A stretch of 64,000 bases of DNA, from contig NW_024705101.1 in the NCBI RefSeq assembly GCF_018977255.1, forward strand, positions 1-64,000. The letters run 5' to 3'. The notes under the pieces were generated by a model, which ran no database searches, was not told the origin of the DNA, and saw only the letters and a program-made list of their open reading frames with translations. This DNA comes from Callorhinchus milii. Lineage: Eukaryota. The position numbers and the translations under genes were made by a program. Each line of letters starts with the position of its first letter. Positions within the stretch are counted from its first letter, which is position 1. This document shows positions 771-52,646 of this stretch, one piece after another.

Positions 771-1139
771 CAGGGGTCGGCAACCTGCGGCTCCGGAGCC
801 GCATGCGATGGCTCTTTAAGGACTAATCTAGATTTGAAGTTTTCGTGACTGCAGGATCCATACTCTTTGGTTCTTTCGGTAAAGTCACGTAGGTATAAAA
901 TATAAAATAAAATAAATCACGACGTTTCGGGCGCAACACAAGCAGCTCTTTTGCCCACTGCAGCAGTTGTTTCTTGCTGTGGTTGTCCCACCTGATGACG
1001 TCTTTAAGGACTACTTCGTGACGTCATTGATTAAGGACCACAGTATCGTATTCACAAGCATTGTGGCTTTTGAAATTTTGTGTTCTTTGACCGTTTAATA
1101 AAAAACATGCCTCTTTTTGTTGGTGTTTGCCGACCCCTG
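771..1139 (+). mobile_element. hAT (Charlie-like) MITE interrupted by a PLE mini-insertion at 826-1000
   Basis: TIRs CAGGGGTCGGCAA...TTGCCGACCCCTG; 8-bp TSD TCCACGAC/TCCATGAT; same family at 13929-14108 and 48299-48488. Confidence 0.85.
826..1000 (-). mobile_element. Non-coding, internally inverted Penelope-like terminus (pLTR) insertion
   Basis: 13-bp TSD TCTTTAAGGACTA at 813-825 and 1001-1013. The left part matches the PLE 3' end at 1352-1460; the right part is the opposite strand ending in CCTGATGACG. Confidence 0.85.
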
Positions 1140-1433
1140 TCCATGATCAATTCAGTGTGATCCGAGCTTATAATTTGCAATGAACAACGAGATTACAAGA
1201 TAATTAATCATTTTGTAACCAGTAATCGTGTTGCATTCTCAGTGCTAATGAATTACATGAAAGTAAAAATGTATTGCAGTCCTTGGAGACGTTTCAGAGT
1301 GTAGCACTATTGAACTGTCAATAACTCCTGTATCAATACAGAGTTCAATCTTGATTTGAAGCTTTCGTGACTGCAGGAATCCATACTCTTTGGTTCTTTC
1401 GGTAAAGTCACGTAGGTATAAAATAAAATAAAT

Positions 1434-1474
1434 CACGACGTTTCGGGCGCAACACAAGCGTCCGTCATCAGGTG
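1434..1474 (-). ncRNA. Minimal hammerhead-ribozyme-like motif in PLE terminus (family A)
   Basis: Minus strand reads CAC-CUGAUGA-C-GGACGC-UUGUGUU-GCGCCC-GAAAC-GUC-GUG. Confidence 0.75.
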
Positions 1475-1679
1475 GGAAAGCATGGTCTGCTGCTGAGGCA
1501 GACTGTTTTAAAAGGTTTGAAATGGGTGTAGCCCAAGGGTCATAAAGAAGTGGGCGGGGCTAGTGATGTTAATGTGAGAAATTAGCATGTAACTGTAAGA
1601 TGGAGAGCGGCCTCCTCGACGAGGGCACGGAAGTGGCTATGTTAATGTGAGAGATTAGCATGTTAATGTGAAATCGAAG

Positions 1680-1815
1680 AGTGGTGCAATCCAAAGGCAT
1701 GAGGGTGCAATCAAAGGCAGATGTGAGTATGAGAGTGCAATCCAAAGGACATGTGAGCATGAGAGTGCAATCCAAAGGCATGAGAGTGCAATGCAAAGGA
1801 CATGTGAGCATGAGA
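1680..1815. repeat. Minisatellite in PLE 3' UTR
   Basis: Repeated ATGAGAGTGCAATCCAAAGG(C or ACATGTGAGC) units. Confidence 0.8.
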
Positions 1816-1946
1816 GATCTAAGAGAGAGGCATAGAGAGAGAGAGACACAGAGAGTCGGAAATAACAGCTGACATAGGCAGGTAGGATGGAAACATCACA
1901 GTCAGTTAAGACTTTACCTGGTTAATAACGTCCTTCCAATGATTGC

Positions 1947-2414
1947 TCAGTTTGTACCCATCCTCTCGGTTGAAGTTGTGTCTGTGTTTATATATCTGGA
2001 TGGCTTCATGAACAAATCTCTGAAGGTAGCCGGTAGGTTTGCAGAGTACCTCCGTCTTGGAAAAATCATTTCGTGTGAGCCCACAGCGTTAAAACAATGA
2101 TCGGCAACGGCAGAGGTATTGGTCCTACCGTGTTTCAGATCTGCCTTGTGTTCACGAACGCGGTCCGAGACATGTCGTTTCGTTTCCCCAATGTAACTGC
2201 TGCCGCAACCACAACTCAGTTTGTAGACACCAGGGTATTGCATGTCAGGAATCACATCCTTTACATATGGGATTAAATCACGGATTTTGTGTACTGTGTT
2301 GAAACGAACCTGGATCTTGTGTTTGTTTAAGATTTTGGAAATCTTTTTGGTAACCCCTGCTATGTACGGTAAAGTGATGGTTTTGGTTGGATCCTCAGAA
2401 GGTTGTCTCCGCAT
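1947..2414 (-). pseudogene. PLE GIY-YIG endonuclease domain fragment (frameshifted)
   Basis: ORF track: LPYIAGVTKKISKIL...GVYKLSCGCGSSYIGETKRHVSDRVREH...SAVADH. Confidence 0.9.
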
Positions 2415-2559
2415 GGCTGGGGAGACAGCTTTGCGGATTGTATGGTCCGAGATTCTTCATCCTGAGGGCTTGGTGTACGTGCTCCAGCTCACTGGCTACG
2501 GGGTGCTGGTCGGAGATGCAACGGGCCCTATGGAGTAGTGTTTTGATGAGGAATTCTTC

Positions 2560-2850
2560 TGGGATGGATGGTGGTGGTATCAGGCTTTAGATAGGCATAC
2601 GTGTGGGTGGATTTCCTGTAGACCGAATTTCCCAACGAGCCATCAGGTCTCTTCTCGATCAAAACAACCAGGAATGGTAGCTTGCCATCCTTTTCCACTT
2701 CTATGGTGAATTTGATAGACGGGTGTATGGAATTGATGTGGTTGAGAAATTGGTTCAGTGCTGGCAGGCCATGTGGCCAGATGACAAACGTGTCATCCAC
2801 GTATTTCTTCCACAAGGAAGGACGTAGGGTGGACGTGGATACCACGTTCG
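2560..2850 (-). pseudogene. PLE reverse transcriptase C-terminal fragment
   Basis: YVDD catalytic motif, FLNHINSIHPSIKFTIEVE, LPFL. The first ~25 aa of the called ORF 2528-2923 come from an adjacent SINE. Confidence 0.9.
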
Positions 2851-2854
2851 TCAT

Positions 2855-2970
2855 CCGGAGGTCCCGGAGAAAAATCCACACGAACATGCAAACTCCAAAT
2901 ATACTGGTGGGGATCGGGCCCACGACCTCCTGAATTACCAGGTGAGGCAGTTAACATCTCGCCACCGTGA
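2855..2970 (-). mobile_element. 5' half of tRNA-derived V-domain SINE abutting the PLE
   Basis: Minus strand reads CACGGTGGCGAGATGTTAAC...GGAGTTTGCATGTTC...TTTCTCCGGG, matching full copies at 25485 and 48924. Confidence 0.75.
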
Positions 2971-4793: not shown

Positions 4794-5472
4794 ATGTATC
4801 ACTGCCTCAGTACTCCGGTGTATTGGAGGGATAGCCACAACATTTAACAAGTGGGGAGTCTGACGGTTCGCCAGGAGTTACAACCGGCATCATCAGGCGA
4901 TTAGCAGAATTGTAAAAACGTCCTCCAGCCTTGGGCTTGCAATTATAGCTTCATTGCCAACATGGTAAAACGTTATAACGCTGTGGATGTATTTTGTCCT
5001 GGGTGTTATTAATGGAAGATACATTGCTATTGAGGCTGCTATTGTATGAGCATAACACGTCCTCAGATGAAGGCTCTCTGGATCTCTACACCTGAAAATT
5101 GTACGTATGTTGAACTTCTTTTGTGTCGTACGTAGCCAACCATTGACATAATGACACTGATTCCTCTACCCATGCCAAGGACTTGGTCTACCTGTTTCGT
5201 CTCATACACACTGTGTTCAACCACCACACTGCAGGTTCCAACATTTCTCTGTCTGATTCTTCTCTTGTGCTGCTGCATGTTGAAATCCCCCCCGCCGTCC
5301 CACTCCCCCCCCCCCCTTGCCCATCCCCCATCCCTTTCCCCAAACTCTTATGACCTTGTTCAACTCAAGAAACGTCTTTAATGTTTATTTATTACAACTT
5401 TGATAGTGTCTACCCGAGACACAGCCAATGAGTAGTGTTGCCACGTGAACATAACGTGTGAATGCATTACTA

Positions 5473-5723
5473 GATTTGAAGCTTTCGTGACTGCAAGGAT
5501 TCATACTCTTTGTTTTTTTCGGTAAAGTCACGTAGGTAAAAATTTTAATAAATGAAAACAAATATATTAAATCACGACGTTTCGGGCGCAACATCAGCAA
5601 TAGGCCATGCTTTCCCACCTGATGACGGACGCTTGTGTTGCGCCCGAAACGTCGCGATTTAATTTAGTTGTTTTCATTTATTAAAAATTTTACCTACGTG
5701 ACTTTACCGAAAAAAACCAAAGA
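5473..5723. mobile_element. Non-coding fold-back PLE mini-element with a complete hammerhead-like motif
   Basis: 13-bp TSD GAATGCATTACTA at 5460-5472 and 5724-5736; ~90-bp inverted arms (about 5506-5593 and 5636-5724). Confidence 0.88.
5616..5656 (+). ncRNA. Minimal hammerhead-ribozyme-like motif (family A)
   Basis: CAC-CTGATGA(5619-5625)-C-GGACGC-TTGTGTT-GCGCCC-GAAAC-GTC. Confidence 0.75.
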
Positions 5724-6792
5724 GAATGCATTACTACTTCAGCACACACCGATGCGTGTGTTATACAGAAAACCCACAACATCTAAAATTTGAGCACGAC
5801 GTCTCGTTGGCGATTACAACTGCCATCATCAGGCATTTGACAGAAGTATGTGAATAATATTGGTCGTGAAGTCAACTGACAGATAAAGGCCTGTCCTCAC
5901 CATTTCGGTCATGGGGGTTGCTAGACCATACTTCGACATACTGCTCAGTGCGTGTTGACTAAGGTGAAAATTTGTTCCGGAACTGATTTAGTCGCCGCTT
6001 GCCTCTTACGTTAGCTGCGACAGAGAATTGAACTCAGTTGTCTGCGTTCACAGTGCGATGGGTAAACCAATGCACCACCGCTCCACCGTGTTTTGTAACA
6101 ATTACGCATATTTTAAAATGCGTTGGTGGACGGTTAGAAATAATGTTTACTCCTTTGATCTGAATTCACCATTCTAAACACACGGTCGACACTTGTTCAT
6201 TCGCCTGTGATATGTTGTCTAATCAGCATGGTGTGTTGTAATAAGGGGCGATATAAAGGATCAAATTACATTGTTTCAGAGAATAGGTCATCGGTCGCTT
6301 GCGTGGTGGAAAATTATCAACCAACTAGTCATGTCTAGTGAAGTTACTGCATTTGACATTTCTCAACACTTGCCGACACAAATTGTGTTTGTGTCCTCTG
6401 AGCTGAAACCGGGTGCAAGGCAATGTTCAAAGCAATTCAAAGTGTCTCTCTGGTGAAAATATACACGGAATGGAAATTCCACATTCAGTTGGCATGGATC
6501 AGTCTGTCCACGATGGACAAATGATGTGTTCCGAGCAATGGTAGTCGTGGTAAGTGCACTTTTATCTCGGTGATTTGGGTTCAATTTGCTGGCCATGCAC
6601 AACACCTGATGGCCTTGGTGTGTTATAGGTAATAATTGGCGTTGGGGAGACAAAGGCAGCTGCTGGATACACGTGGGCCGTGCCAGCTTCCTTGGAAATC
6701 GCAAAAAGCACGTGCACCTAGAGTCTCTGTAAGGCTTGGCAGGCGCATGTGTGTGTGTGCCATGTGTGTGTGTGCCATGTGTGTGTTTGTGG

Positions 6793-7060: not shown

Positions 7061-7854
7061 TGTCTTGTGCCATGCAGGTATGTGGGCCTATAAAAAGCGT
7101 CACCGGTATATAAATGCAGCATTCGATATTGTATTGATCTCACTCTAAGTCACACTCACTGAAATATAACTAAAAGAGTGCCAAAGATATGAATGCTTGG
7201 TTAATGTCACCAATAGCCCAGGTTGCACAACCACTGTGTTATTCTTACATAAATCATAACTAATAATTTCTAGTTGTCTTCCATGGGCGTGTGTCTACAT
7301 GCATTCATTTGCAAGCGTATATTGCATCAAGTTATTGATATAATTTAACGTGTGTCTAAGTAAAGTAAAATATGCTCAGAACTGTTATTTTATAACATGA
7401 AATTGGCTGACTACATCTTAATTCGTTGCAATCTTATCAGTCAAAACATTGGTTTACATGACCATACTCTGAAAATTCCAAATATTGGATTGCCACTTTT
7501 GAAAACTGAAGTAATCTCGGAAAGCTTTCTCTCCGATGGTACCCATTCAAACTGTGAATACTTCAGTTGTTGTCAGCACACAAGATTACTATACATACGG
7601 TGTAAGATTTTGCAATTGTACAATTCATGAACTTAAATCAGTTTTTTTCACTCTCAGATGCCCCTCCACAAAGCGTTGGCCAAAATCACGAAAGCAAAGT
7701 TGTCGTCAAATCGGAGTTGCTCTGGCGAGCAAGGATCGTGGTGTTTTCATATTCGAGCATCACAAGCACCGCATAAGTATAGCATCAGTGCTCTGTGCAC
7801 ATCTTGGTGCACAATCACACCACCCAGGTGTTGTGCAGCTGTATATACACTTTT

Positions 7855-8145
7855 TTACTTTTTTTTTACCAGGTCAGGCCCCACTGAGCGATACATCCAT
7901 TTTTTCAGAAGCAACATGGCCATAAATGATAGGTCAACGCAGTGGCTTATCATGTTGAAATTTATAGCCGCCAAATACTCTAAATGCATGTCTCTAAATA
8001 TGGAGGGCAAAACCGAAGGACCCGGAGAAAAGTACACGTGACCACGGGGAGAACATGCGAACTCTAAATATACAGCAGGGATCAGGCTTGGGATCGAACC
8101 CACGATCTCTATACCAGGCGAGGTATTCAACATCTCGCCACCGCA
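7855..8145 (-). mobile_element. tRNA-derived V-domain SINE
   Basis: Minus strand has B-box GGTTCGATCCC, V-domain TTCGCATGTTCTCCCCGTG...TTCTCCGGGTCCTTCGGTTT and tail ACCTGGTAAAAAA. Confidence 0.85.
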
Positions 8146-8267: not shown

Positions 8268-8368
8268 TGATAATTGGTTCTTTACCCTTCTATCTGGCAA
8301 CAAAACTGACACCTTTTTGCAAGGTGTCAGTTTTGTTGCCAGATAGAAGGGTAAAGAACCAATTATCA
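8268..8368. repeat. Perfect inverted repeat, 48-bp arms with 5-nt loop
   Basis: 8268-8315 is the exact reverse complement of 8321-8368. Confidence 0.95.
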
Positions 8369-13420: not shown

Positions 13421-13928
13421 CTGCCAGCCACCTACAGGCCCGACTCAGTATCGCATGCTGGTGTACACACGTGCATTGATGTACTGCACAGCACATAAGG
13501 ACCTTCACAAAACCACACTTTACTCCATTGCTGCAAGAGGAAATAATTAAAAGAGGGGTCCATTCCTAATGTGCCACATACGTAAAGTGCTAATGTGTCG
13601 TACATTGGCTGGGTGCTGCATATAAACTGGTGAACTGCTATGAACAGAGAATGTGCCAACACGAGTTATATATCTACATTGAAAGCTAATTTCTAATTTG
13701 AATCAGTTCTTTCGAACTGCGTGTTTAGTTTGTCATCCTCCCCCCGTACCTCCGATTAGCACGGTTGGTTACGTATGGTGTGAAAAAAAGTTCAACACAT
13801 ACGTAAGTTCAACACGCATAGTTATCTCCAGCTTGCTGGAGATTTAGACTCAGAGGCAAAGGGTGGTAAACGCGCAGCCCTGGAATTTCCTGCTCACGTA
13901 CTGCTGGCAGACGATGCCTGAACTAGGG

Positions 13929-14108
13929 CAGGGGTCAGAAAATTCAATGACAAAAAGAGCAGTTTTTTTCGAATTCGGTAAAAAAACCCACAATATTTCA
14001 AGAGCGAAAGGAATGTAAATACGAGGTGGTGGTCCTTAATAAATAACGTCACAAAGCAGTCCTTAGAGAGCTGCGTGCGGCTCCAGAGCCACAGGTTGCC
14101 GACCCCTG
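13929..14108 (-). mobile_element. hAT (Charlie-like) MITE
   Basis: CAGGGGTC...GACCCCTG termini; flanks AACTAGGG/CACTAGGC; homologous to 771-1139. Confidence 0.8.
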
Positions 14109-14934: not shown

Positions 14935-14973
14935 CTAGTACAGCACACGGGTGCGTTGCACAAATCTGGCTGT

Positions 14974-15013
14974 CGCCTGATGAAGCTAGTTGTAATTAAT
15001 AGCGAAACGTCGT
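14974..15013 (+). ncRNA. Minimal hammerhead-ribozyme-like motif (family B)
   Basis: CTGATGA(14977-14983)-A-GCTAGT-TGTAATT-AATAGC-GAAAC-GTC. Confidence 0.7.
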
Positions 15014-15814
15014 ACACAGATTGTAAATGTTGTGGCTTGGCTCTCCAACACACCGGCGTGTGTACTCTCTGTCCACCACAGTTTCTGCTGCTGTCCACCA
15101 GCCGGCGCTATTACACTACATCACCCCCCCCCTTGTTTAAAAAAGCAGCCGTCCCAGCTGATACACAGAAATGTAACCGGGTGGACAGGCAGAGCAACCC
15201 CAAAACCGAGGAACGTACAAAAAAAATACAGTCGCGACACTGTGACGATTTAACAACTTATAACGCCAGTCGTATAATTTCAACGATTTCTGACACCAGT
15301 TGTGGTGTCGGTGATTCGGAGGCGAGGTTTGAAGGATGCACCTTTTATTTAGAACATCCATGGCCTCGTCTGCACACTCTCGACAGTCACTTAGCCTAGC
15401 CTATACACAACACTAGCCGTCTAACACTAACGGCGCTGACTGAGACAGCCAACTACTATCTAGCAGCGCAATATCGAGCAAAGACGGCAGCGACGAGATG
15501 AATCCAATCCCAGAACCGGCAGCCTCGAGCTCCCGCTCTCGGCTCCTTCTATCCTACCAGCGTGGCCTAACTGCGCCTTGGCCGCGCCTCCCTTCTCGAA
15601 CCCACTAGCTTCCAGACGGGGTCCTCTGTGACCCTTGCCCCAGTTCCTCCGCCCTGCCAACACACCTGTGCACACGCTCACTGGCGTGTGTACTGTTTGT
15701 CCACCACAGTTGCCGCTGCTTTCCACCAGCTGGCGCTATTACACCTGTATTATGGATGATATTGGTCGCGAAAGCCTACGTGTTAAACAAATTATATTTT
15801 GTTTACTAACCAAC

Positions 15815-16130
15815 GCTGGAGGTGGAGTGCCTACACTTTACCCCACCACATGTCGTGGGTTCGATCCCGAGCCTGACGCCTGCTGTATATTTGGAGTATG
15901 CATGTTCTCCCTGTGGTTATGTGGATTTTTTCTCCAGGTCCTCCGGTTTTCCCCTCCACATTTAGAAGCATTACACATTTTGAAACAACCTCACACGTTA
16001 AGTGTATTTGGCTGCTATAAATGTCTACACGATAATACCACTTCATTGCGCTATCGTTTGTGATAGCCAGGTCGCTTCTGAAAAAGAGCTAAATAGCTCA
16101 GTGGGCCATACCTGGTACAAATGAAAAATA
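15815..16130 (+). mobile_element. tRNA-derived V-domain SINE
   Basis: GGTTCGATCCC B-box, GGAGTATGCATGTTCTCCC...CTCCGGTTTT and ACCTGGTACAAAT tail. Confidence 0.8.
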
Positions 16131-26167: not shown

Positions 26168-26213
26168 CAGGGTCATGTCCCCAAACATGATCATGTTTGG
26201 GGACATGACCCTG
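26168..26213. repeat. 46-bp perfect spacerless palindrome
   Basis: CAGGGTCATGTCCCCAAACATGA|TCATGTTTGGGGACATGACCCTG. Confidence 0.95.
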
Positions 26214-27076: not shown

Positions 27077-27201
27077 TCTGATTTAAAGTTTTCGTGACTG
27101 CAGGGATTCATATTCTTGGTTCTTTATTATTTCGTATTGTTTAAGATTTGTATTATTTAATTATTTCCCTTCTACGTGATTTTACCGAAAGAACCAAAAT
27201 A
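27077..27201. mobile_element. Tiny inverted PLE-terminus insertion
   Basis: 10-bp TSD TGCTACATAT at 27067-27076 and 27202-27211. The minus-strand terminus GATTTAAAGTTTTCGTGACTGCAGG is followed by plus-strand CTACGTGATTTTACCGAAAGAACCAA. Confidence 0.8.
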
Positions 27202-31207: not shown

Positions 31208-31345
31208 CTTAAAGCTTTCATGACTGCATGAATTCATATTCTTTGGGTCTTTCGGTAAAGTCACGTAGATAGGTTGAAAGAAAATAACAAAAAACTACGA
31301 CGTTTCGATCACAACACAAGCGATCGTCATCAGGAGGAGAAAAGA
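31208..31345 (-). mobile_element. PLE terminus (family A variant) with hammerhead-like motif at 31297-31335
   Basis: AAAGCTTTCATGACTGCA...CGGTAAAGTCACGTAG; minus strand CUGAUGA-C-GAUCGC-UUGUGUU-GUGAUC-GAAAC-GUC. Confidence 0.8.
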
Positions 31346-36385: not shown

Positions 36386-36588
36386 CAATCTATCGTAATA
36401 ACGTTGCACATGTATACAGCATAACAATAACCTGTGCTGACAGCTCTTCTCAATCCACTGTTGTATGAATGCCTTCCCACACCGTGAGCACACTTTGAAT
36501 GAACATGTTATGGACATACTCTTTGGTTTTTTCGGTAAAGTCAGGTAGGTAAAATATAAAATAAATAATGAGAACAACTAAATTAAAT

Positions 36589-36629
36589 CACGACGTTTCG
36601 GGCGCAACACAAGCGTCCGTCTTCAGGTG
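36589..36629 (-). ncRNA. Minimal hammerhead-ribozyme-like motif (family A)
   Basis: Minus strand CAC-CUGAAGA-C-GGACGC-UUGUGUU-GCGCCC-GAAAC-GUC-GUG; differs from the 1434-1474 copy only at the free N7 position. Confidence 0.75.
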
Positions 36630-37161
36630 GGGACAACGTAGCGAAAGCACAACCGCTTAAGTGTGTCTAAGAGATGGCTGTGACGAGGAATTATATAGTT
36701 GCGGGGGAAGGAGGGGGGGGGCATGGTGAGTGTGGGGGCGGGGTGTGGGCTGGGAGGTAACCTGGAGTTCAAACTGAAGCTTTGTGATGCGGGGGCGGAA
36801 GTAGATAAGAAAGCTAAGTTAAGCCGAGTGTGGGGGCGGGGTGTGGGCTGGGAGGTAATCTGGAGTTCAAACTGAAGTTTTGTGATGCAGGGGGTGGAAG
36901 TATATAATAAAGCTAAGTTAAGCCGATTAAAGACATCCTTTGTTATGCTGCAGGGGGGGTAAATTGGAGTTGTGCAAGCTAAACTTGCACGCTCGAAACG
37001 ACGTGTGGCAAATTTTTTCTCAAGTGTTGGGAGTAGGCCGGGCTTAGAGCCAAATTTCATAGTGATGGTAGTGTGTAAAGCTGGGAGTAAAAGACTGGGA
37101 ATATGGATATGAATATGAAAATAAATATAAACTGGCTGCCTTGCAGTAAACTGCACAGCAG

Positions 37162-37611
37162 CTAAAGTTTCACTTGGTTAATTACATCCTTCAAATCATT
37201 GCTCAATTTGAATCTATCCTCTCGGTTGAAGTTACGTCTATGTTTGTATATCTGGATGGCTTCATGGACAAATCTTTGGTAGTATCCAGGAGGCTTGCAG
37301 AGTACTTTGGTATCGGAGAACACAATATCATGAGAACCTGCAGTGTTATAACAGTGGTCTGCTACGGCTGAAGAATTCGTCCTACTGTGTTTCAAATCTG
37401 ACTTGTGCTTGTGAATGCGGTCAGAAATATGTCATTTCGTTTCCCCGATATAACAATCACCACAGGTGCAACTCAGTTTGTAGACACCAGGGTACTGTAA
37501 GTCAGGAATGACAACTTTTACGGATGGGATCAGATCACGGATTTTGTGTACTGTACTGAATCGGACCTGGATCTTGTGTTTGTTTAGAATTTTGGAAACC
37601 TTTTTGGTAAC
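37162..37611 (-). pseudogene. PLE GIY-YIG endonuclease fragment with premature stop
   Basis: ORFs 37432-37761 (PLE part only) and 37162-37395 are in frame and separated by a TGA where the other copy has Arg (CGA). Confidence 0.85.
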
Positions 37612-37826
37612 GTAGTGGGAAAGGTAGTGGAGTGTGTAGTGGGAAAGGTAGTGACCACACGTGTCAAGTGAAGTGTGTGTAGAGTGAGGAATAGTGACCA
37701 CACGTGTCAAGTGAAGTGTGTGTAGTGTGAGGAATAGTGACCACACGTTGTATCGTGACAAGTCAAGGTTTAATAAAAAGTGTGCTACCCGTCAAGTGGT
37801 TTCCTGCCGTCATTCCGAATACTTCA
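37612..37826 (+). repeat. 5' LTR remnant (3' part only)
   Basis: 37626-37826 matches 44035-44235 with one substitution seen; AATAAA at 37772. Confidence 0.92.
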
Positions 37827-37828
37827 AC

Positions 37829-37842
37829 TGGCGTCAGAAGTG
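37829..37842 (+). promoter_or_regulatory. Primer binding site, tRNA-Leu-like
   Basis: TGGCGTCAGAAGTG, 2 nt after the LTR end; one mismatch to TGGTGTCAGAAGTG, the complement of the tRNA-Leu(CAA) 3' end. Confidence 0.8.
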
Positions 37843-37858
37843 AAACAGTCTTCCAGGC

Positions 37859-40800: not shown

Positions 40801-41362
40801 ATGCCACCTTCTTCGTAAGTCCGTGAGATACTTGGGCCACATTGTCGATTCTTCGGGGATCTCTACCGATCCCGCGAAGACGAACTGTGTCAGTTCATGG
40901 CCAACGCCCACGTCAGTTTCGGACGTGCGCAGTTTCATCGGTTTTGCTTCTTACTACCGCCGATTCGTTGAGCATTTCGCCACCATTGCAAAACCCTTGC
41001 ACGCTCTAACGGCAAAAGGAGTCAAGTTCCGATGGGGACCGGAGGAGGAGGCCGCGTTCTGCTCCCTCCGGGACGCCTTGGTGGGCGCCCCGCCCTTGCG
41101 TTATCCTGACTTTACAAGTCCCTTCTTGCTAGACACGGATGCTAGCAACACGGGCATTGGGGGGGTGCTCTCACAGGTCGTTGGGGGAGTCGAAAGGGTG
41201 GTCGCCTATGGTAGCAGGGTTTTGTCGCCGGCGGAGCAGCGCTACTGCGTCACCCGTCGCGAGTTGCTGGCTATTGTTTTTTTGTACAGCAATTTAGACC
41301 GTATCTCTATGGCCGTCACTTTACGGTCCGGACGGACCACGCGGCGCTTCAGTATTCATTGA
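37859..41362 (+). CDS. gag-pol: Gypsy Gag-Pol polyprotein (gag with CCHC knuckle, aspartic protease, RT, RNase H); frame lost near 41280
   Basis: CYNCGLRGHVASGC; LVDTGASAT; LRFCVDFRRLN, LPMGL and YLDDVIVF; LDTDAS and YCVTRRELLAIV. Confidence 0.96.
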   Translation: MDTRKTRRTHGIDREDNLDDSGQLASGGEDEEMPTPQDPPRAPDERLGTDAVLREAHSRLAELLLAAASILAEINTSGGAGTSADIQQGRPADSRQNDLAIPAISTARTSFGGNGEQHVAAVLQARPLTSSTRAADRHQPPAIGAAILQTDGAAERNHVAEDDFIFQQRLPTLSAFKAEGGDWGAFQRRFLAHQEMSAWSDATALRALPAMLDDDALAAFRSAQRSDRSTLKAALGLMAKVYGPPSACRHHFYARRKADTETALAYRTALLALADAAFPRMDEEGQDAMVLEQLLKLAQDLGVPINTADEVDISSLRVATSIQAHEVLQRKQGVVCTAAVASAPGPVVTEPQVVSPREEAFTAGRPGDWRSGGRSPLRSARKLEQPRPPTSLITCYNCGLRGHVASGCRAPRQRAMGPRLDDDQGPKSSLLPPASRGTSHARPTCTTHMGRRVAAEEGRLGIGDSVRRGGFVRDRGDIKWSELGHRIVAASAGSSVVTGFIDGVEVRVLVDTGASATIISDLIYNILPVQCRPLLPVDVPFYAANGGSLGIVGQIRASICIGDIKLSGPVFVSSSLAVPCLLGTDFLAKMPIKILIDQRCIELPSGRRISFLTNPTEIRTACATIQALATQTVHVPPGSQMLIPLRLRKPLVGETSEQGMLLGPSNRAVGGLDLSVAHTLVRADKDPFVMVLNAGSRPAVIQQGTVLAHAARVPAEERLVAHVDPSPTQNNPSREDLEWVDSLCADSNDLSTVQLGALRALLIEFSDVFSKHKYDIGCTDLLRHHIETGDAAPVRLNPFRLSPAEKEHVQSAVNDMLAADIISPSSSPWGAPIVLVKKQDGSLRFCVDFRRLNKISVADAYPLPRMDESLDALSGARYFSTLDLLSGFWQLPLDDESRPKTAFRTPGGLFQFNRLPMGLHSAPATFQRLMELVLSGLQWDTCLIYLDDVIVFSKTFEEHLQRLRGVFLRMRSAKLKFKPAKCHLLRKSVRYLGHIVDSSGISTDPAKTNCVSSWPTPTSVSDVRSFIGFASYYRRFVEHFATIAKPLHALTAKGVKFRWGPEEEAAFCSLRDALVGAPPLRYPDFTSPFLLDTDASNTGIGGVLSQVVGGVERVVAYGSRVLSPAEQRYCVTRRELLAIVFLYSNLDRISMAVTLRSGRTTRRFSIH

Positions 41363-42213
41363 GGGTCGCCCAACCCTCGGGCCAATTGTCACGGTGGTTG
41401 GAAGTCCTCCAGGACTATCAGTTCACGACCACATACCGTAAGGGGTTGCGCCACACTAACGCCGATGCCCTGTCGCGATTGTCGCCTTGTCACAAATGTG
41501 CGTGCTTAATGGGATCGGCGCGCTGTAAACCGCCAGCTGCGGAAAGTATGGGGGCGTTGGCCGCGACCGCGGATGCACCGATCGGTGATGTTCCCGCTAC
41601 CCCTGAGGGAGAGGACTCGCTGCTCTCACTGTCGCTGATTGAGTGGGGCCGTCTCCAAATGGCTGACAGCTCCCTGCTAGCGTTGCGTCGCAGGGCGGGG
41701 GGTCCCGAGGAGGGCCGGGAGCGAACTGGCTCCTGGGTACTCAAGCAGGGCCTGTTAATGAGATGGGACAATTTGTCCCGGCGGCACGCACTCGTGGTGC
41801 CTTCCGCTGTGCGGGGGAAAGTTGTCCTGGCCGCACATGAACGCCTCTTGCATTTGGGAGTAAACAAAACGCTTGCTCTGCTTCAGCGTGACTATTATTG
41901 GCCGGGGATGGGGAGTGATGTGGTGAATATTCTAAAGGGGTGTGTTGATTGCGCCAGACGAAAACCGCCGCCCGTGGCGTCAAATCCACCGCTGCAATCT
42001 ATTCAGGTCTCGCGCACTAACGAGCTCGTTGCGCTCGATATTTTGGGGCCTTTTCCAGTCACGCCTAGGGGAAATAAGTACCTGTTGGTTGGTGTCGAAT
42101 ACTTTACCCGGTGGCCTATGGCGTGGCCACTCGCCAACCAGTCGGCGGCGGCTGTGACGGACGCCTTTGTCCAGGGCTACGTCTGGACAAGGGGGCTCCC
42201 GAACGCTTGCTGA
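41359..42213 (+). CDS. pol: Pol continuation: RNase H end, integrase zinc finger and start of catalytic core
   Basis: LSRWLEVLQDY, NADALSR; H...HLG...YYWPGM...C..C; ALDILGPFP, GNKYLLVGVEYFTRW. Confidence 0.9.
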   Translation: MRVAQPSGQLSRWLEVLQDYQFTTTYRKGLRHTNADALSRLSPCHKCACLMGSARCKPPAAESMGALAATADAPIGDVPATPEGEDSLLSLSLIEWGRLQMADSSLLALRRRAGGPEEGRERTGSWVLKQGLLMRWDNLSRRHALVVPSAVRGKVVLAAHERLLHLGVNKTLALLQRDYYWPGMGSDVVNILKGCVDCARRKPPPVASNPPLQSIQVSRTNELVALDILGPFPVTPRGNKYLLVGVEYFTRWPMAWPLANQSAAAVTDAFVQGYVWTRGLPNAC

Positions 42214-43141
42214 CCGACCAAGGGAAAATTTTTCTAGTAAATTGCTGCAAGAGGTGTGCGACCTATTGGGTACTAAGAAGGTGCGTACCTCCCCGTACCA
42301 CCCACAGACAGACGGGATGGTGGAGCGACTCCACAGGACTTTGACTTCTATGCTGTGCCAGCAGGTGTGTGAGGCACATGTTGACTGGGACCTGCAGGTC
42401 CCGGGGGTCCTCGCCGCGTATAGAATGGCCCCCCATGCAGCAACGGGATTTTCCCCATTCTATCTGATGTATGGTCGGGAAGCCGACCCGCCCATGGAAA
42501 CGCAGCTGGGACTGTCCGCGCCACGAACGAATTCGAAATTGGCTGAACATATTAAATTTAACATTCATAAGCTGACCGAGGCACGGGAGGCCGCACGGCT
42601 TAATTCGCGGGCTCGCCAAATTGCCAACGAGCGTTTGCGTGCACGGAAGGTGTCCGTGCACAACTGGAAACCAGGCGATAGGGCCTGGCTGCACTGCCCT
42701 CAGGCACCTTTGGCTACGTCGCCTAAATTGTTGAAGCCATGGCGGGGACCCGTGGAGGTCGTGCGGGTTGCACGCCCCCAGTGTGTTCAGATAAAATGGG
42801 GAAAGCGCCGTTGGTACGTCCACCCCTCCCGACTGAAACCGTTCTCGCCTCCATATGGCCTCCCTTTGTGTCGTGAGGGCCGAGCATGTGACGTGACCGA
42901 CGACCCAAGGGGGGAAATGTCTCCGCCTGATCCTCACATGTCTCCGCCTGATCCGCTCCCAGGTGTCTCGGAACTGACAGCTGCCGACCACCGGCGGCCG
43001 GATCCCCGCGGCGCGGCCGGTCCTTCCAGGCCCGATCCGCGCCTTCCAGGGCTGCCGGAGCCACCAGACGGTCGTCAGCGTCCCGTCCCATACGATGGAC
43101 CGGCCAGGCGGACTCGCGCTAAGTCGCGCAACTTTTCATGA
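42167..43141 (+). CDS. pol: Pol continuation: integrase core C-terminal half, GPY/F-like module and Pro-rich tail
   Basis: TSPYHPQTDGMVERLHRTL, TGFSPFYLMYGRE, KLLKPWRGPVEVV, VHPSRLKPF. Confidence 0.9.
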   Translation: MSRATSGQGGSRTLADRPRENFSSKLLQEVCDLLGTKKVRTSPYHPQTDGMVERLHRTLTSMLCQQVCEAHVDWDLQVPGVLAAYRMAPHAATGFSPFYLMYGREADPPMETQLGLSAPRTNSKLAEHIKFNIHKLTEAREAARLNSRARQIANERLRARKVSVHNWKPGDRAWLHCPQAPLATSPKLLKPWRGPVEVVRVARPQCVQIKWGKRRWYVHPSRLKPFSPPYGLPLCREGRACDVTDDPRGEMSPPDPHMSPPDPLPGVSELTAADHRRPDPRGAAGPSRPDPRLPGLPEPPDGRQRPVPYDGPARRTRAKSRNFS

Positions 43142-43501
43142 CCAACCGAATGAGGGGCCGATGCGGCCGGAGCGCCTCGTCACTGCGTTCCTCATCCGCT
43201 CGACCGCTCTATCATCCCGGTGGAGGAGCGAGCGGAGGGGGGGGATCGATAGTCACAGAGACACTGGACACGTTCTTTTTCTTGGACTTGCTTTTATTGT
43301 GTTGTTCGTCGGTTTGTACATAGCTTGTTGTCTAGGTGTTGTGTGTTGTTGTTGACTTTTATTGTGTTGGTTGTCGGTTTGTACATAGGTTGTTGTCGGG
43401 TGTTGTGTCGTTGTGTTGTTGTTGTTGCGTTACGGGGCACACTGGGGGTGGGGTTTTGTTGTGTTGTGTTGTTTAGCAGCCGGGCCGGCTGCGAGCTATG
43501 T

Positions 43502-43513
43502 GGGAGGGGGTGA
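43502..43513 (+). promoter_or_regulatory. Polypurine tract
   Basis: GGGAGGGGGTGA directly before the TGTAGT that starts the 3' LTR. Confidence 0.75.
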
Positions 43514-44235
43514 TGTAGTGGTGATACGCGCTGGGGTGGGATCGTGTGCCAGCGCGTAGTGATTGGCTGTGTGTGTTGGTGACGCGCGCTGACGGTGAAG
43601 GATCAGGGGTCAGCGCGGGGTCGGGGGTTATGAGGCAGTGATTGGCTGGGTATCGGTGACGCGCGCTGACAGCGATGGGATCCTGGGGCAAGCGCGCGGG
43701 GATTGGTCAACTAAGGGGGATGCTCACGTCGAGGTCCGCATACGCTCCGTCTCCCGAGAGCGGGGGCTATATAAGGTGGTGCGCACAGGCGCACGAGGAG
43801 TTGGTGACCAGCGAAGACTGAAGACGGAGGAGGAAGAGATAGGGCCCTGCGGCACCTAGTCCCGCTGTCCTTGTAAGGGCCGGGGCTCTGTGTGACCCAG
43901 AGGCGGGACCCTGGGACCCGGGGCCGAACGTCCGTGTGAGGGCCGGCCCTCGGCCACGGACGTTACGGGGCTGGAGTGCAGTGTGAGCATGCAGTGTGAG
44001 CATGCAGCGTGAGCCATAGTAACTACACGTGTCAAGTGGAGTGTGTAGTGGGAAAGGTAGTGACCACACGTGTCAAGTGAAGTGTGTGTAGAGTGAGGAA
44101 TAGTGACCACACGTGTCCAGTGAAGTGTGTGTAGTGTGAGGAATAGTGACCACACGTTGTATCGTGACAAGTCAAGGTTTAATAAAAAGTGTGCTACCCG
44201 TCAAGTGGTTTCCTGCCGTCATTCCGAATACTTCA
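43514..44235 (+). repeat. Complete 3' LTR (722 bp)
   Basis: TGTAGT...ACTTCA termini; ATTGG boxes; TATATAA at about 43768; ~49-bp tandem units containing CACACGTGTC; AATAAA at 44181. Confidence 0.85.
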
Positions 44236-46740: not shown

Positions 46741-46742
46741 CG

Positions 46743-47359: not shown

Positions 47360-48298
47360 TATGATTAACAAGATTTGCTATTACCGTTGGCATACAATCT
47401 TTACTTTTTAAAAAAAAATGATGCAACGGGTGCTTTGTTAAACTGATAATTACAGCAATAATAAATAGCAGGTTAGTACAATTCACTCTCATTAAAGTAA
47501 CTTACAATGTATTGTTTAGTTTTTTTTAATTGTATAGTTTGTCCCTCTTCGAATGTATTCTCAGCATTACCAGAGAATTTGCTGAAATGTATTTCTGTTA
47601 GAGCTGAGCGTAAGGCCATGGTGGAGGTGGTGTTGAGGGCAAGGCCATGGTAGAGGAGGAGCTGATGGTAAGGCCTCGGTGGAGGAGGTGTTAATTGGGA
47701 AGACCATGTGGAGAAGGATGAGCCTGAGGCCATAGTGGTGAATAAGTTGCTGAGGATCACGGTGGTGGAGGAGAAGAAGGAGGTGCAGAGGCCAGTTAAA
47801 TTGGACATTCTAACTCTGGTCATGTTTGCCAATGGTGGAAATTCCATGTTCCCATGGCAGAGCCCAAAAATACAACACTGGTCCAACTAAACTGATCTGT
47901 TGCTGCCTACTAACGTGCTTATTTGTTATCAGATATGAGCAATAATCGTATACAAACACTTGTCACGTTTAATAAGCACAAATACGTGTCAGTGCCCTAC
48001 AGAATGCCATTTACTCTGGTCTATTTTTTCTTTAGCACTGGTTACTCAGGGATATGCATTCCCTGGTGAAGAGCTGTATGCATTGGTGCTTAGCTATGGG
48101 TGTGATGGCTCTTGTAGCTGGCAGACTTATCGGGTCGTGGCCTTGGCTCAGAGAATTGGCACAGAACGGATTCCTCCTTCCTGCATATAAAGCAGTGTTT
48201 AACTGTTTAAGCCCTTATGTCGGTCAAAATACAACATCCCATTTAATAATAATGATACTAATTTCGTACAATTTGGTATTCGTGCCTTTCCTATAGCG

Positions 48299-48488
48299 CA
48301 GGGGTCGGCAACCTGCAGCAACCTGCGGCTCATGTGGCTCTTTCAGGACTGCTTCGTGACTTTATTTATTCAGGACCACCGTCTCGTATTCACATTCCTT
48401 TCAGGTCTTGAAATATTGAGTTTTTTTTATATATACCGAATTAAAAAAAAATATGGCTCTTCTTGCTATTTTGGTTGCCGGCCCCCTG
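48299..48488 (+). mobile_element. hAT (Charlie-like) MITE
   Basis: CAGGGGTCGGCAACC...GGTTGCCGGCCCCCTG; flanks CTATAGCG/TTATCGCG. Confidence 0.82.
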
Positions 48489-48923: not shown

Positions 48924-49212
48924 AGCGCCACGGTGGGGAGATGTTAACTACCTCGCCTGGTATACATGAGATCGCGGGTTCGTTCCCGACTCTGTCACCT
49001 AAGTTTGCGTGTTCTCTCTCCTCGTGGTCGTGTGGATTTTTCTCCGGGTCCTCCGGTTTTTCCCTGCATATTTAGAAACATGCGTTTAGAGTATTTGGCT
49101 GCTGTAAATTTCCACACGATAAGATACTTGGTTGAACTATCATCTATGGCCAGACCACTTCTGAAAAACAGCTATAAAGCTCATTGGGCCTTACCTGGTA
49201 AAATAAAAAAAA
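48924..49212 (+). mobile_element. tRNA-derived V-domain SINE
   Basis: Same head, V-domain (TTTCTCCGGGTCCTCCGGTTTT) and ACCTGGTAAAATAAAA tail as the other copies. Confidence 0.85.
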
Positions 49213-50889
49213 ATAGTTTAATAGTTTTTTACAGTTTTTAATGGTAACGTTTGATGATATCTCACCATGCTGGTTGACATTGCATAGATAGGCGCCCTAG
49301 TTGGGAATCGAAGTCAGGAATTTATTGTTGTGATGACAAGTATTACAACTGCGCCACCCTGCCACCCAAATTCCACTGTTGGCATGAGTGTCTCCACTAG
49401 AGGCAGCTATAGAAAGCCTCTCTCGTAATAACCACCCAGATCCATGCCATAGCCAAACAGCATTTCATATCTTTAGTTTCATATAAAGTTATAAAAATGT
49501 AAACTGTTGTTGTAACAAAAAAAATATCTCAAGGTCATGAGAAGACAGGTAAGACACGTGTTTCATTGCATCCATCAATGGGCCTTCATGACCAATGATT
49601 CCAAGTAATATTTATTTTAACGAAGCAATCTCCACATTTTTCTACTTGTTTGAGATTCAGAAATTGGTACAGGGTTTGCATCGTATAAACAATTGCTACA
49701 GGGAAACATACAGTACTCCAAATGGCCCACTCTTTAATAGACTTAAAATGCTATTTTACGTTGGTGATGCTACAGACCATTAACGCAATGTTTTTTGTTT
49801 AGTCTGGTTTGTGAGATGGGGTTATGGAAGTGTGCAGGTTGCACAGCATGGTAGTTGAAATCAACCAACCAACTGCTCAAACTCTATTTGTCAGCAGCAG
49901 AGAACCCAACGAGACAGTAATTTTCCTCAGCGAGGAATGCGGAATTGTACTTGCTGGCAGAGCAGCTGGTCAAGTGAAATTGGGTAAACATGGCAGAGCT
50001 ACATGAGCCCCGCAGGCTTCCGGGAGTGCTTTCGCCCTCCTTCCAGTCTCACGGAATATCACAAATGGCCCCTCACACTTGCCTCAAGGACTTTCTAAAG
50101 TAAAAAAAACCTTGTCGTGTTGTCCCTGACGTGACATTGGCTACGTATCTTTTTACCATTTTAAACTTCCCTCGGTGTCTTTCACCTTGCGACTTGTGAA
50201 CACTCCTCTTCATTGTTGTGCGTTTTTAACCACTCACAAAATGTATTTTATTTTTGCTGTTGTAAAGTCGACTGAAAATACACTTAATTAATTGTCAATG
50301 TGTAACCGTTTCTCTCTATGTCCACTAATATATTTCCGTGCAAGCCTGAACAGGAGTTGCGTGAATATAGAACTCCTTTTATCCGCGACCCGATTACCCA
50401 CAACTCTTCTCATCAGCTGGAGCTGTAGGGTACGCAAAAAAAGTTGATTGTTCCTGTACATTTCTCAGAGATAAGTGGAGTCCCATGACAAAGTGGAGTA
50501 GATTTGTGGATAATCCCGCGGATAATAGGATCCATCGTTATGTCCCCCATATCACAACGGAACAGAGAATTTCTGCTAACGCAACAAAACACCGATATGA
50601 ATATACATCATATACTCTGTATACACTGGATACTTACCAGTTAGTTAAGATATGCGAAAACACTCAACCTCATTTAAAATCCACATGAATAGCCAACAAG
50701 CAATGGCGACTTGGGATCTACGGATGAAATGTGCCTTAAAAATGTAAATTATTATTATTGTATCCACCTTTCAGCATTGGATATCATAATTACACTCAAT
50801 AGTGAGGACACGACCCTTGATGATCCAAGTCCATTTTAATTGTTCATGGACTCCGTTGATCTCCAATCAAGGCTTACGTTTAGTAGTTA

Positions 50890-51201
50890 GACCGAACGCA
50901 GAATAACCCTGTGTTTGATCTTCCACGAAGCTCATGGTCCACCCTAAACCGCATACACTGTACAACACATGGCAGCAGATGCGGGATACCTGATGCACAA
51001 ATGGAAAATTAAAAACTCTCCAGTGTGCGACTGTGGTCATCCAGAACAGATATATTACGATGCTGGCACTATATGGACACATACGAAGGAGACATCACAG
51101 TGATACACTTCGCTGTTCCTGACGCGGTTGTCTGGCTTGAACATCTGAATGTGACATTATGGTTGTTGTTCTGCATTTACATCAGCCGTACGAAAGAAGA
51201 A
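50890..51201 (+). mobile_element. 3' fragment of a Vingi/Ingi-like LINE
   Basis: Frameshifted peptide FDLPRSSWSTLNRI...RCGYLMHKWKIKNSPVCDCGHPEQ...PDAVVWLEHL; 3' end CCGTACGAAAGAAGAA. Confidence 0.7.
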
Positions 51202-51723
51202 ATTAGAGACGGCACCATCCGGCTTGTTCAGCTCTTTGCACAAAGTATATATTTCATTAATTATTATCTACAACTATTAGATGCATTGTAAATTACCACT
51301 AACGTAGCAGTTAACATAATGCCATTGTTATATCCTGTGCAAAAAAAATATTTTGACACTATTTAATTTCAACAGCCATGCGTAGATTCACCCAATAAAT
51401 GTGACCATAGTGATCCCCAATCTCCATTAATGCAATGCAAGTGCCAGTCGAGATTGAATTTAACATAGTATGCAATGCTCAATTCACAAACATATATCAG
51501 CTCCACCTGAGATTTAACACGTAGGCTTGCACAACCAATATCATCCATAATAGAGTTATTTTTGGGTTGATCGCGTAAATATATAAATGTGTCGTTAAAA
51601 CCCGCCACCACCCAACACAGCCAACTAGTAAGGGTTGTCACGTAAACAGAATGTGGCCAATTTGTCACTAGTACAGCACACCGGTGTGTTGGAGAACCAA
51701 GCCACAACATTTACAATCTGAGT

Positions 51724-51763
51724 ACGACGTTTCGCCAGTAATTACAACTAGCTTCATCAGGCG
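51724..51763 (-). ncRNA. Minimal hammerhead-ribozyme-like motif (family B)
   Basis: Minus strand CUGAUGA-A-GCUAGU-UGUAAUU-ACUGGC-GAAAC-GUC. Confidence 0.72.
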
Positions 51764-52156
51764 ACAGCCAGATTTGTGGAGAAAACTAACTGTTTCGTTC
51801 CTTATATAGAAGTGTGGTGACCACACTTCTGCGCTCTTGCCCAAAGTCAAGGGGGATTACTGAGTCAACGTACATTATGCATGTGCATTATGTGAAGCCT
51901 TTGATCTTGTCCTTCCTGTCTATTGTGTGTAGTGGCGTAAATGGAGTCACTATGGCGTTTAGCACCAGCTACTGTCACAAGTGTGGAGCTGTGTGTCTTG
52001 GGCCTCTCTCTGGCACCAGAGTTGGTATGCCATGGAAGCGGGCCCTAGGGGCATAGTCCTGGTGACAGTGAGAGAGGTCGGGTGAGGACGTGACAGTCTG
52101 GGTGACCCCGAGAGGACACGTGTGGTCACCACATCTACGCTTCAAATATGGCAGTT

Positions 52157-52196
52157 GCCTGATGAAGCTAGTTGTAATTACTGGCGAAACGTCGTA
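52157..52196 (+). ncRNA. Minimal hammerhead-ribozyme-like motif (family B)
   Basis: CTGATGA(52159-52165)-A-GCTAGT-TGTAATT-ACTGGC-GAAAC-GTC. Confidence 0.72.
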
Positions 52197-52646
52197 CTCA
52201 GTAAATGTTGCGGTTTGGTTCTCCAACACACCGGTGTGCTGTACTAGTGACGAATTAGCATGCTCTGTCTACGTGACAACCCTTACTAGTTGGCTGTGTC
52301 GGGTGGTGGTGGGGTTTAATGACACATTTATATATTTACGCGATATAACCCACAAAAACCTCTTATGGATACACTGAGATTGTATGACGATAAGGCACGC
52401 GTTTCCTCCTCCGCACTATTTTTGTTCCAAAATAATTTTATTAACAAAACGAAATCAGGTACACAACACAGGATATGAAAGGAGGTTGACACCACAACAC
52501 ATTACGGATTACAGTGCAATGGAAACTTGTCTAAACCGCAAGTTTCAATAAACTGCTTCAATAAACTCTACAACCCCCTGGTGTCTTCCTTAGCTTTGAT
52601 ACCCCTGTAGGAGAAGAAAATAAAGGAGGGGGGAGTGCCTAAATGC

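What the first reader, a model, noticed from the sequence alone, without database searches (positions are those of the whole stretch)
826..52372. About ten hammerhead-like motifs from several Penelope subfamilies, with covarying stem II and almost no stem III
Seen: the core CUGANGA-N-[6-bp stem, 7-nt loop]-GAAAC-GUC occurs at 1434-1474(-), 5616-5656(+), 14974-15013(+), 31297-31335(-), 36589-36629(-), 51724-51763(-) and 52157-52196(+). Degenerate versions occur at 4861-4900(-) and 5795-5835(-), and a split one at 918-1000. Stem II changes sequence but keeps pairing (GGACGC/GCGCCC, GAUCGC/GUGAUC, GCUAGU/ACUGGC) while the core is retained. Established: PLE terminal repeats carry minimal type I hammerheads proposed to cleave as dimers via a palindromic stem III. 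Inference: stem III is reduced here to the 4-nt palindrome ACGU and stem I to about 2-3 bp, so a monomer cannot fold. Activity would need dimerisation or protein help, or the fold may serve as an RT/endonuclease recognition signal.
Basis: partly seen in the sequence, partly recalled or inferred. Interest (0 to 1): 0.7.

Follow-up and report, generated by a model that had tools for sequence, protein, structure and literature searches.

The report
Known mini-hammerheads in Penelope retroelement stubs
Nine small hammerhead RNA motifs and one split copy are really there, but they are leftover ends of lamprey-type Penelope jumping genes whose motif was printed in 2014; it is predicted to cut only in pairs and with protein help, and these copies were likely made from RNA unbroken at the cut site, so this is an ordinary case of a known thing.

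Summary
Observation confirmed: 7 intact and 2 damaged cores (0 in 100 shuffles) and one copy split by an inversion at insertion. They are minimal type I hammerheads in the terminal repeats of two Penelope/Poseidon lineages (intact proteins 49% identical; one has a 92% identical sea-lamprey relative). Nearly the same motif is printed for a Petromyzon marinus Poseidon element in the supplement of Cervera and De la Pena 2014, with the dimer model. The assembly holds 3,226 exact copies, almost all on small lamprey-like contigs. Found without using the core, copies keep core and ACGU palindrome (6.5% and 1.6% deviation) while stem II and flanks drift (33%, 44%). Stem I is 1-3 bp in the window but 10 bp in the intact tandem subfamily. 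Copy ends ignore the cut site: 46 of 46 3' ends lie at the start codon or about 35 nt into the ORF, and 5' ends show no excess at the cut. The window's copies are likely passive relics. Cleavage was not tested. The scan has noted this motif many times, also in this genome. Already known; low interest.

The parts
826..1000 (.). Family A stub inserted with a 5' inversion that breaks the hammerhead inside stem II (3' half 921-943 on -, 5' half 992-1000 on +); cannot fold
   Evidence: 13-bp duplication at 813-825 and 1001-1013, single in two related empty sites
1343..2875 (-). 5'-truncated, frameshifted family A Poseidon element: RT end, GIY-YIG endonuclease (1897-2875), 3' UTR, hammerhead, tail
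   Evidence: tblastn 68-81% to intact 825-aa ORF; blastn 80% over 941 bp
1437..1471 (-). Minimal hammerhead core, family A (stem II 5 of 6 pairs, stem I 3 bp)
4862..4896 (-). Damaged core, family B/C type (A15.1 to C), in a stub of about 4799-4926
5473..5724 (.). Fold-back family A insertion: half hammerhead 5576-5593(-) on the arm with the tail, whole hammerhead on the shorter arm
   Evidence: 12-bp duplication 5461-5472 / 5725-5736; arms 92% complementary; ends at +112 and +76
5619..5653 (+). Minimal hammerhead core, family A (stem I 1 bp)
5798..5832 (-). Damaged core, family B/C type (A14 to G; stem II 3 of 6)
14977..15011 (+). Minimal hammerhead core, family B, in a stub of 14959-15066
27080..27197 (.). 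Fold-back family A stub that lacks the hammerhead (arms begin 25 and 67 nt after the cut site)
31299..31333 (-). Minimal hammerhead core, a second family A subfamily, in a stub of 31196-31364
36515..37635 (-). 5'-truncated family A Poseidon element (endonuclease 37177-37635, 3' UTR, hammerhead); an LTR retrotransposon abuts its 5' end
   Evidence: tblastn 76%
36592..36626 (-). Minimal hammerhead core, family A (stem I 3 bp)
51513..52380 (.). Inverted pair of family B ends (51513-51931 on -, 52143-52380 on +), tail on the left arm only
51726..51760 (-). Minimal hammerhead core, family B (stem II 6 of 6)
52159..52193 (+). Minimal hammerhead core, family B (stem II 6 of 6), opposite strand to its neighbour

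Best explanation
These motifs are minimal type I hammerheads carried in the terminal repeats of two lamprey-type Penelope/Poseidon retrotransposon lineages, and the ten copies in the window are likely passive relics of truncated or fold-back insertions. Shown: in intact elements one motif sits about 80 nt (family A) or about 180 nt (family B/C) ahead of the start codon and again after the ORF, every 3 kb in head-to-tail arrays; core and ACGU are conserved while stem II changes. Inferred: a single motif cannot close stem III over two bases, so two motifs on one read-through RNA would pair ACGU with ACGU, probably with the element's own protein as chaperone, and cut after GUC to trim the multimeric transcript. 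Inferred from copy ends: reverse transcription starts at the start codon or about 35 nt into the ORF and runs through an unbroken hammerhead, which is why so many short stubs carry the motif. Lone or opposite-strand copies such as those in the window are predicted not to cut.
For: Motif real and abundant: (3,226 against 16 for the reversed pattern). Position in elements: hammerhead after RT/GIY-YIG remnants in the window; 825-aa ORFs bracketed by motifs at a period of about 2,995 bp; family B motif downstream of a same-strand PLE ORF piece in 12 of 30 loci, 11 distinct places; 789-aa ORF with a related motif. Identity: best hit 92% over 67% of the query, Petromyzon marinus; the printed P. marinus motif has the same loop II, stem lengths and CGUC. 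Selection on the fold: 64 distinct copies found without the core deviate at 50 of 768 core letters and 2 of 128 palindrome letters, against 214 of 640 in stem II and 451 of 1024 in flanks. Ends: 17 of 46 at +72 to +87 and 29 of 46 at +112 to +124, start codon at +81, none at the cut; family B 12 of 16 at +167 to +191 or +213/214, start codon near +178; 0 of 58 5' starts at +1; genome-wide loss across the cut 32 of 765 against 28 of 793 and 33 of 733 in the flanking steps. Literature: no monomer activity and low dimer activity for a Schistosoma motif; anole Poseidon hammerhead cuts only with protein and its mutants insert normally. 11 of 16 neighbour pairs under 1 kb are divergent, opposite-strand pairs.
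Against: No cleavage was measured for any lamprey motif. An RNA cut at two motifs and ligated into a circle would also show an unbroken junction, so the end maps do not prove that the template was never cut. Nearest-neighbour energies put the double-hammerhead fold 4 to 20 kcal/mol above two freely folded monomers in all 9 cases tried, so a dimer is not predicted to form unaided; that model ignores tertiary contacts. Pair-level covariation measures are not above shuffles. An intact-ORF lineage carries U4 to C in 85 copies, a change reported to lower activity, which weakens the claim that cutting is essential. The low deviation of the core partly reflects few founding lineages.
Confidence: 0.72

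Rival explanations
1. Cut-and-circularise: two motifs of a tandem cut out a unit RNA, its ends are ligated into a circle that restores the hammerhead, and reverse transcription round the circle makes the tandems and the stubs. The motif is then an essential step, not a side activity.
For: Proposed in the 2014 paper; head-to-tail arrays of at least five units exist; an unbroken junction in the copies is what a circle would also leave; core conserved across lineages.
Against: Anole hammerhead mutants insert normally in vitro and no RNA reads ended at the cut site; no circle was seen here (contigs only); tandems also arise by insertion beside an earlier copy (review passage).
Confidence: 0.17
2. 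The fold is kept as a binding or recognition signal for the RT/endonuclease, and cutting is incidental.
For: Loop II is nearly fixed within each lineage; active folds are not the lowest-energy ones; a U4 to C lineage has intact ORFs.
Against: Copy ends keep their place relative to the start codon although the hammerhead lies about 80 nt away in one lineage and about 180 nt in the other; an anole template starting at +20 of the ORF, past the 5' core strand, was active; the conserved letters are exactly the catalytic ones.
Confidence: 0.07
3. The motif is no longer under selection: it is inherited with the repeat, and its apparent conservation reflects recent amplification of a few masters.
For: Few lineages; pair-level covariation not above shuffles; several abundant subfamilies carry a mismatch in stem II.
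Against: Two lineages whose proteins are 49% identical share core, bulge, stem II and loop lengths while their stems and flanks differ; core deviation 6.5% against 33-44% next to it; same architecture across 40 animal species in print.
Confidence: 0.04

Closest known systems
Minimal hammerhead (min-HHR) of the Petromyzon marinus Poseidon element, Cervera and De la Pena 2014 (PMC4209133, Table S1 and Fig. S3)
   Same: Printed row: helix I UCAC/GUGA, CUGAAGA plus one unpaired base, 6-bp helix II GAUUGC/GUAAUC, loop UUGUGUU, CG palindrome, UC; same element type and position. This is family A of the window.
   Different: Window subfamilies differ in stem II letters; family B/C (loop UGUAAUU or UGCAAUU) is not among the 56 rows of that figure, which gives one lamprey example.
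Poseidon element of Anolis carolinensis (PAc), Frangieh et al. 2024 (PMC11167929)
   Same: Same clade; two reverse-transcription start sites that bound a 30-40 bp tail; template not cut at the hammerhead. An A. carolinensis protein is 45% identical to the family A ORF; that it is PAc is my inference from its first residues, not confirmed.
   Different: In PAc the ORF starts inside stem II and the start sites lie about 111-118 nt into the ORF; here the ORF starts 81 or about 178 nt after the cut and the ends lie at the start codon and about 35 nt in. Cleavage and protein help were measured there, not here.
Dimer-cleaving small hammerheads of PLEs (Lunse, Weinberg and Breaker, RNA Biol; paper not held, seen only as a title and a passage in review PMC6765202)
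   Same: Type I, palindromic and extremely short stem III, proposed dimer cleavage in tandem elements.
   Different: Could not check whether lamprey motifs were assayed.
Non-LTR retrozymes of animals (Cervera and De la Pena 2020, PMC7229834)
   Same: Type I hammerheads, dimer use in amphibians.
   Different: Retrozymes are 150-450 bp tandem units with canonical ribozymes; the window's copies are dispersed or inverted ends of an ORF-bearing element.

Membership tests
Minimal type I hammerhead of metazoan PLEs | Core CUGANGA ... GAAA ... UH | tested here: met
   7 of 9 intact, 2 with one change
Minimal type I hammerhead of metazoan PLEs | One unpaired base between positions 9 and 10.1, and G10.1-C11.1 pair | tested here: met
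   G-C in 9 of 9 window copies; bulge in all; features named
Minimal type I hammerhead of metazoan PLEs | Helix II longer than canonical, with compensatory changes | tested here: met
   6 bp; 4 of 6 pairs change on both sides; count of such pairs not above shuffles, so statistical covariation is not established
Minimal type I hammerhead of metazoan PLEs | Palindromic positions 15.2-16.2, no real helix III | tested here: met
   CG kept at 126 of 128 letters in copies found without the core
Minimal type I hammerhead of metazoan PLEs | Short helix I closing the core | tested here: met
   1-3 bp in the window; mode 3, second mode 5, up to 10 in 200 contexts
Minimal type I hammerhead of metazoan PLEs | Located in the pLTR of a PLE | tested here: met
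Minimal type I hammerhead of metazoan PLEs | Self-cleavage after UH, as a dimer or with protein | not testable with these tools
   needs a bench assay; runs held only as contigs
Penelope/Poseidon clade of PLEs | Single ORF, RT followed by C-terminal GIY-YIG endonuclease with CCHH residues, DKG motif | tested here: met
   825-aa and 789-aa ORFs read directly; RVT_1 E 9e-12; Pfam did not call the endonuclease, which I read by eye
Penelope/Poseidon clade of PLEs | No zinc-finger-like linker between RT and endonuclease (marks Neptune and Nematis) | tested here: met
   no cysteine in the linker of either ORF
Penelope/Poseidon clade of PLEs | Tandem and inverted insertions with a one-sided 30-40 bp tail | tested here: met
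   described
Penelope/Poseidon clade of PLEs | Placement in a tree with named members of all PLE clades | tested here: inconclusive
   quick tree of 20 rows groups both lineages with the Petromyzon protein (support 99) but holds no named Neptune, Nematis or Naiad row
Canonical type I hammerhead (Rfam families) | Match to an Rfam hammerhead model | tested here: not met
   no hammerhead match up to E 1
Non-LTR retrozyme | Short (150-450 bp) head-to-tail repeats each with a ribozyme | tested here: not met
   window copies are dispersed or inverted

The most novel reading that the evidence does not exclude
Lamprey Poseidons are a natural experiment that uncouples the hammerhead from reverse transcription: two lineages place the motif 80 or 180 nt before the ORF, yet both start copying at the start codon and about 35 nt later, and a lineage with a weakened core (U4 to C) keeps intact ORFs and 85 copies. 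The start codon region, not the ribozyme, would set the element's end, and cutting would be a tunable brake on the element's own RNA rather than a step of transposition.
Probability: 0.25. Interest if true: 0.4.

Novelty: already known. Interest (0 to 1): 0.13.

Why it matters
The motif and the dimer model are published, for lamprey too, so the finding adds no new kind of RNA. What hammerheads do for Penelope-like elements is still open. The end maps here add modest genomic support, from a second vertebrate group, for copying from RNA that is unbroken at the cut site, and they point to ready test material: an intact tandem subfamily with a 10-bp stem I and a U4 to C lineage. A practical point: the window lies on a small contig whose repeats are lamprey-like and are missing from most chromosome-scale scaffolds sampled, so copy counts from this assembly do not describe one organism's genome.

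Tried and rejected
Rfam scan: no hammerhead family matches. Pfam on 45 long and 78 shorter frames found only the LTR element; 156 shorter frames left of 44,300 and 2 repeat-derived ones right of it were not scanned, so a host exon is not excluded. Lunse et al. could not be read; claims about it rest on a review passage. Full-text search for lamprey + hammerhead ribozyme + Penelope gave 0 papers, yet the motif is in a supplement, so that blank means nothing; file 1 of that supplement was not searched. The anole paper's supplements gave no sequence (the GenBank file cannot be read). An intron starting right after the cut site (GU follows it) was considered and dropped: no pyrimidine tract with AG before the start codon in the sequences, and no matching joint, which covered only part of the unit. 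Four public runs were laid as contigs only: they hold the element but cannot show RNA ends, strand or circles. Conservation counted with the core pattern was rejected as circular and redone with anchors outside the core (82 of 161 anchors had loop II at the right distance, 65 distinct, 64 used). In the family B end map, +213 is also where the reference copy stops, so that peak is a lower-quality estimate; only the 16 matches from the contiguous sample are counted. Alignment A2 holds one stray one-base row that was set aside in the counts.
Full report
1. Observation. The pattern CUGANGA-N20-GAAACGUC matches 7 times exactly and twice with one change; 100 dinucleotide shuffles give none. In the assembly the exact pattern occurs 3,226 times against 16 for the reversed control. 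Rfam has no model that catches it. The split copy is one insertion, 826-1000, with a 13-bp target-site duplication in a MITE-like repeat whose relatives hold the site once; its 5' part is inverted, so the hammerhead was broken at insertion. A second fold-back insertion (5473-5724, 12-bp duplication) carries one whole and one half motif.

2. What carries it. Frameshifted RT and GIY-YIG remnants lie directly upstream of the motifs at 1437 and 36592 on the same strand. Elsewhere in the assembly, intact 825-aa ORFs stand head to tail at a period of about 2,995 bp with one motif per unit, ahead of the start codon. The best of 615 homologues is a Petromyzon marinus protein, 92% identical over 67% of the query; the next listed are 36-51%. 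The second motif type (14977, 51726, 52159 and the two damaged copies) has no ORF in the window, but lies downstream of a same-strand PLE ORF piece in 12 of 30 related loci, and its sister lineage has an intact 789-aa ORF, 49% identical to the first. A quick tree joins both lineages with the Petromyzon protein (support 99). Neither ORF has the cysteine linker of Neptune and Nematis (described), so I file them under Penelope/Poseidon.

3. Is the fold under constraint? For 64 distinct family A copies found by anchors outside the core (804 kb sampled), deviation from the commonest letter is 50 of 768 in the 12 core positions, 2 of 128 in the CG of the palindrome, 214 of 640 in stem II and 451 of 1024 in flanks. 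Stem II pairs in 85% (window) and 90% (19 variants) of cells, with 4 of 6 pairs changed on both sides; percent paired and covariation score exceed all 500 shuffles and all slid controls, but counts of covarying pairs and pair types do not (142 and 97 of 500; 175 and 202 of 500). So pairing is kept across lineages, but on few independent events. Stem I is 1-3 bp in the seven intact window copies, and 4 or more in 73 of 200 distinct contexts, 10 in the intact tandem subfamily.

4. Mechanism. Shown by the sequence: only two bases separate A15.1 and U16.1, too few to close a hairpin, and ACGU is self-complementary. Inferred: stem III can form only between two motifs. Energy calculations say this is marginal (ACGU duplex -1.7 kcal/mol; the double-hammerhead fold lies 4-20 kcal/mol above two free monomers in 9 of 9 cases, usually because the 5' core strand pairs with CGUC), which fits a need for a chaperone; the model omits tertiary energy. 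For the anole Poseidon element, cleavage was seen only with the element's protein, core mutants inserted normally, and copying started at two internal sites that bound the tail (second part of the main text; passages). The lamprey copies show the same signature. Measured from the cut site, 46 of 46 3' ends of family A matches (90% identity or more, off record edges) fall at +72 to +87 (17) or +112 to +124 (29), with the start codon at +81; none of 58 5' starts is at +1 and four are at -8 to -2. Contigs of four public runs also leave the element near +117 (loose ends). Family B ends fall at +167 to +191 (7 of 16) and +213/214 (5 of 16), 4 earlier, start codon near +178. Genome-wide, nested patterns of the commonest subfamily lose 28 of 793, 32 of 765 and 33 of 733 copies per three-base step; the middle step crosses the cut, so there is no footprint of cut RNA (local check). 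The template was therefore continuous across the cut site: uncut (my preferred reading, on the anole data) or cut and re-ligated (first rival). Close neighbours are mostly on opposite strands (11 divergent of 16 pairs under 1 kb in 614 kb), so stubs rarely have a partner on the same RNA; intact tandems do.

5. Comparison with what is known. Cervera and De la Pena 2014 (PMC4209133; I read parts 1-2 of 4 of the text and parts 1-2 of 3 of supplementary file 2) define this motif class, list its marks, note single and opposite-strand copies 100-700 bp apart, report no monomer and low dimer cleavage for a Schistosoma example, and print a P. marinus Poseidon motif with the same loop II and stem lengths as family A. 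Craig et al. 2021 (PMC8557442, passages) describe inverted copies and the one-sided tail. A 2019 review (PMC6765202, passages) states the dimer model; the dimer paper it cites was not held. PMC7229834 and PMC3088659 were seen as passages, the 2026 retrozyme preprint as part 1 of 5. All sequence-level membership tests are met; activity is untested.

6. Context. The window's repeats are confined to small contigs and three clusters, and differ in CpG content from the large scaffolds sampled, so the contig likely comes from a second organism in the assembly. Earlier notes of this scan reached the same reading of the motif on other pieces of this genome and in other genomes; they are not independent support. 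One of them prompted the footprint test and was not borne out here; another sharpened the circle rival.

7. Verdict. Real, correctly recognised, already known down to the lamprey example. The small additions are the second lineage, the U4 to C lineage and the end maps; I ran no search on whether these are in print beyond, and supplements I could not see may hold them. Interest 0.13.

Noticed in passing
G000 as a whole; window = C360:1-64000: The motif, the PLE ORFs and an old SINE-like repeat sit almost only on small contigs (C75 onward, 0.24 Mb or less). Of the 100 listed pattern matches, in contig order, 39 lie on C1-C43, 28 of them in three clusters on C5 and C14; all 85 U4 to C copies are on small contigs. 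CpG observed/expected is 0.68-0.95 in the window against 0.20-0.66 in 16 stretches from C1-C74 away from the clusters, and only the 2 cluster stretches of 20 share sequence with the window. Likely a second, lamprey-like organism in the assembly; a restricted chromosome is not excluded.
   Followed up: partly
window 37626-44235 (+): Young LTR retrotransposon: 201-bp LTRs 99.5% identical; 1172-aa frame with protease, RT and RNase H, integrase in later frames. It abuts the 5' end of the second PLE remnant.
   Followed up: partly
L224:4555-4589 (-), L167, L170, L225: A lineage with an intact 789-aa ORF carries CCGAUGA in place of CUGAUGA (U4 to C); 85 exact copies. One passage reports that U4C lowers activity in vitro yet supports viroid infection.
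   Followed up: partly
L226-L229 (G000:C174): Tandem array with a 3.3-3.5 kb unit over at least 78 kb; each unit holds the first 570 nt of an 18S rRNA gene and a cluster of family A stubs with one intact hammerhead on the strand opposite to the rRNA piece; no frame of 400 aa.
   Followed up: partly
L061:6231-6316 and 6682-6707, run X19: Two contigs of one RNA-labelled run show clusters of a single kind of change (T to C on one, A to G on the other; 32 of 37 changes in the run), as A-to-I editing of double-stranded element RNA would give. Depth under 6, one run, no matching DNA.
   Followed up: no
window 771-1139, 13926-14108 (-), 48294-48485 (+): MITE-like repeat with 13-bp terminal inverted repeats (hAT-like by my recall, not tested); the copy at 771 is the target of the split hammerhead insertion.
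   Followed up: partly
window 7846-8143, 15852-16151, 25486-25772, 34660-34938, 48925-49238: Five copies of a 290-bp SINE-like repeat, 71-78% alike; the V-SINE label is recalled, not tested. One copy-like piece lies at 2855-2979, at the 5' end of the first PLE remnant.
   Followed up: partly
window, 50-85 nt after the cut site in both lineages (e.g. 1407-1413 and 51638-51644, -): The heptamer ACGTGAC is kept downstream of the hammerhead in families A, B and C although the sequence around it is unrelated; a candidate internal promoter element.
   Followed up: no
L002, L004, L006, L120 (C1, C3, C5, C24): A different, older repeat of the chromosome-scale scaffolds (76-84% alike over 95-216 bp) also holds both core strands 20 nt apart but with poor stem II pairing and no PLE ORF within the loci.
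   Followed up: partly
window 8268-8368 and 26168-26213: Two perfect palindromes (48-bp and 23-bp arms) that give weak microRNA-family matches far below Rfam's cut-offs; the first has relatives in L115.
   Followed up: no
window 51726-51760 (-) with flanks: Family B can extend stem I beyond an internal loop by about 6 more pairs in constrained folds; not tested for covariation.
   Followed up: partly
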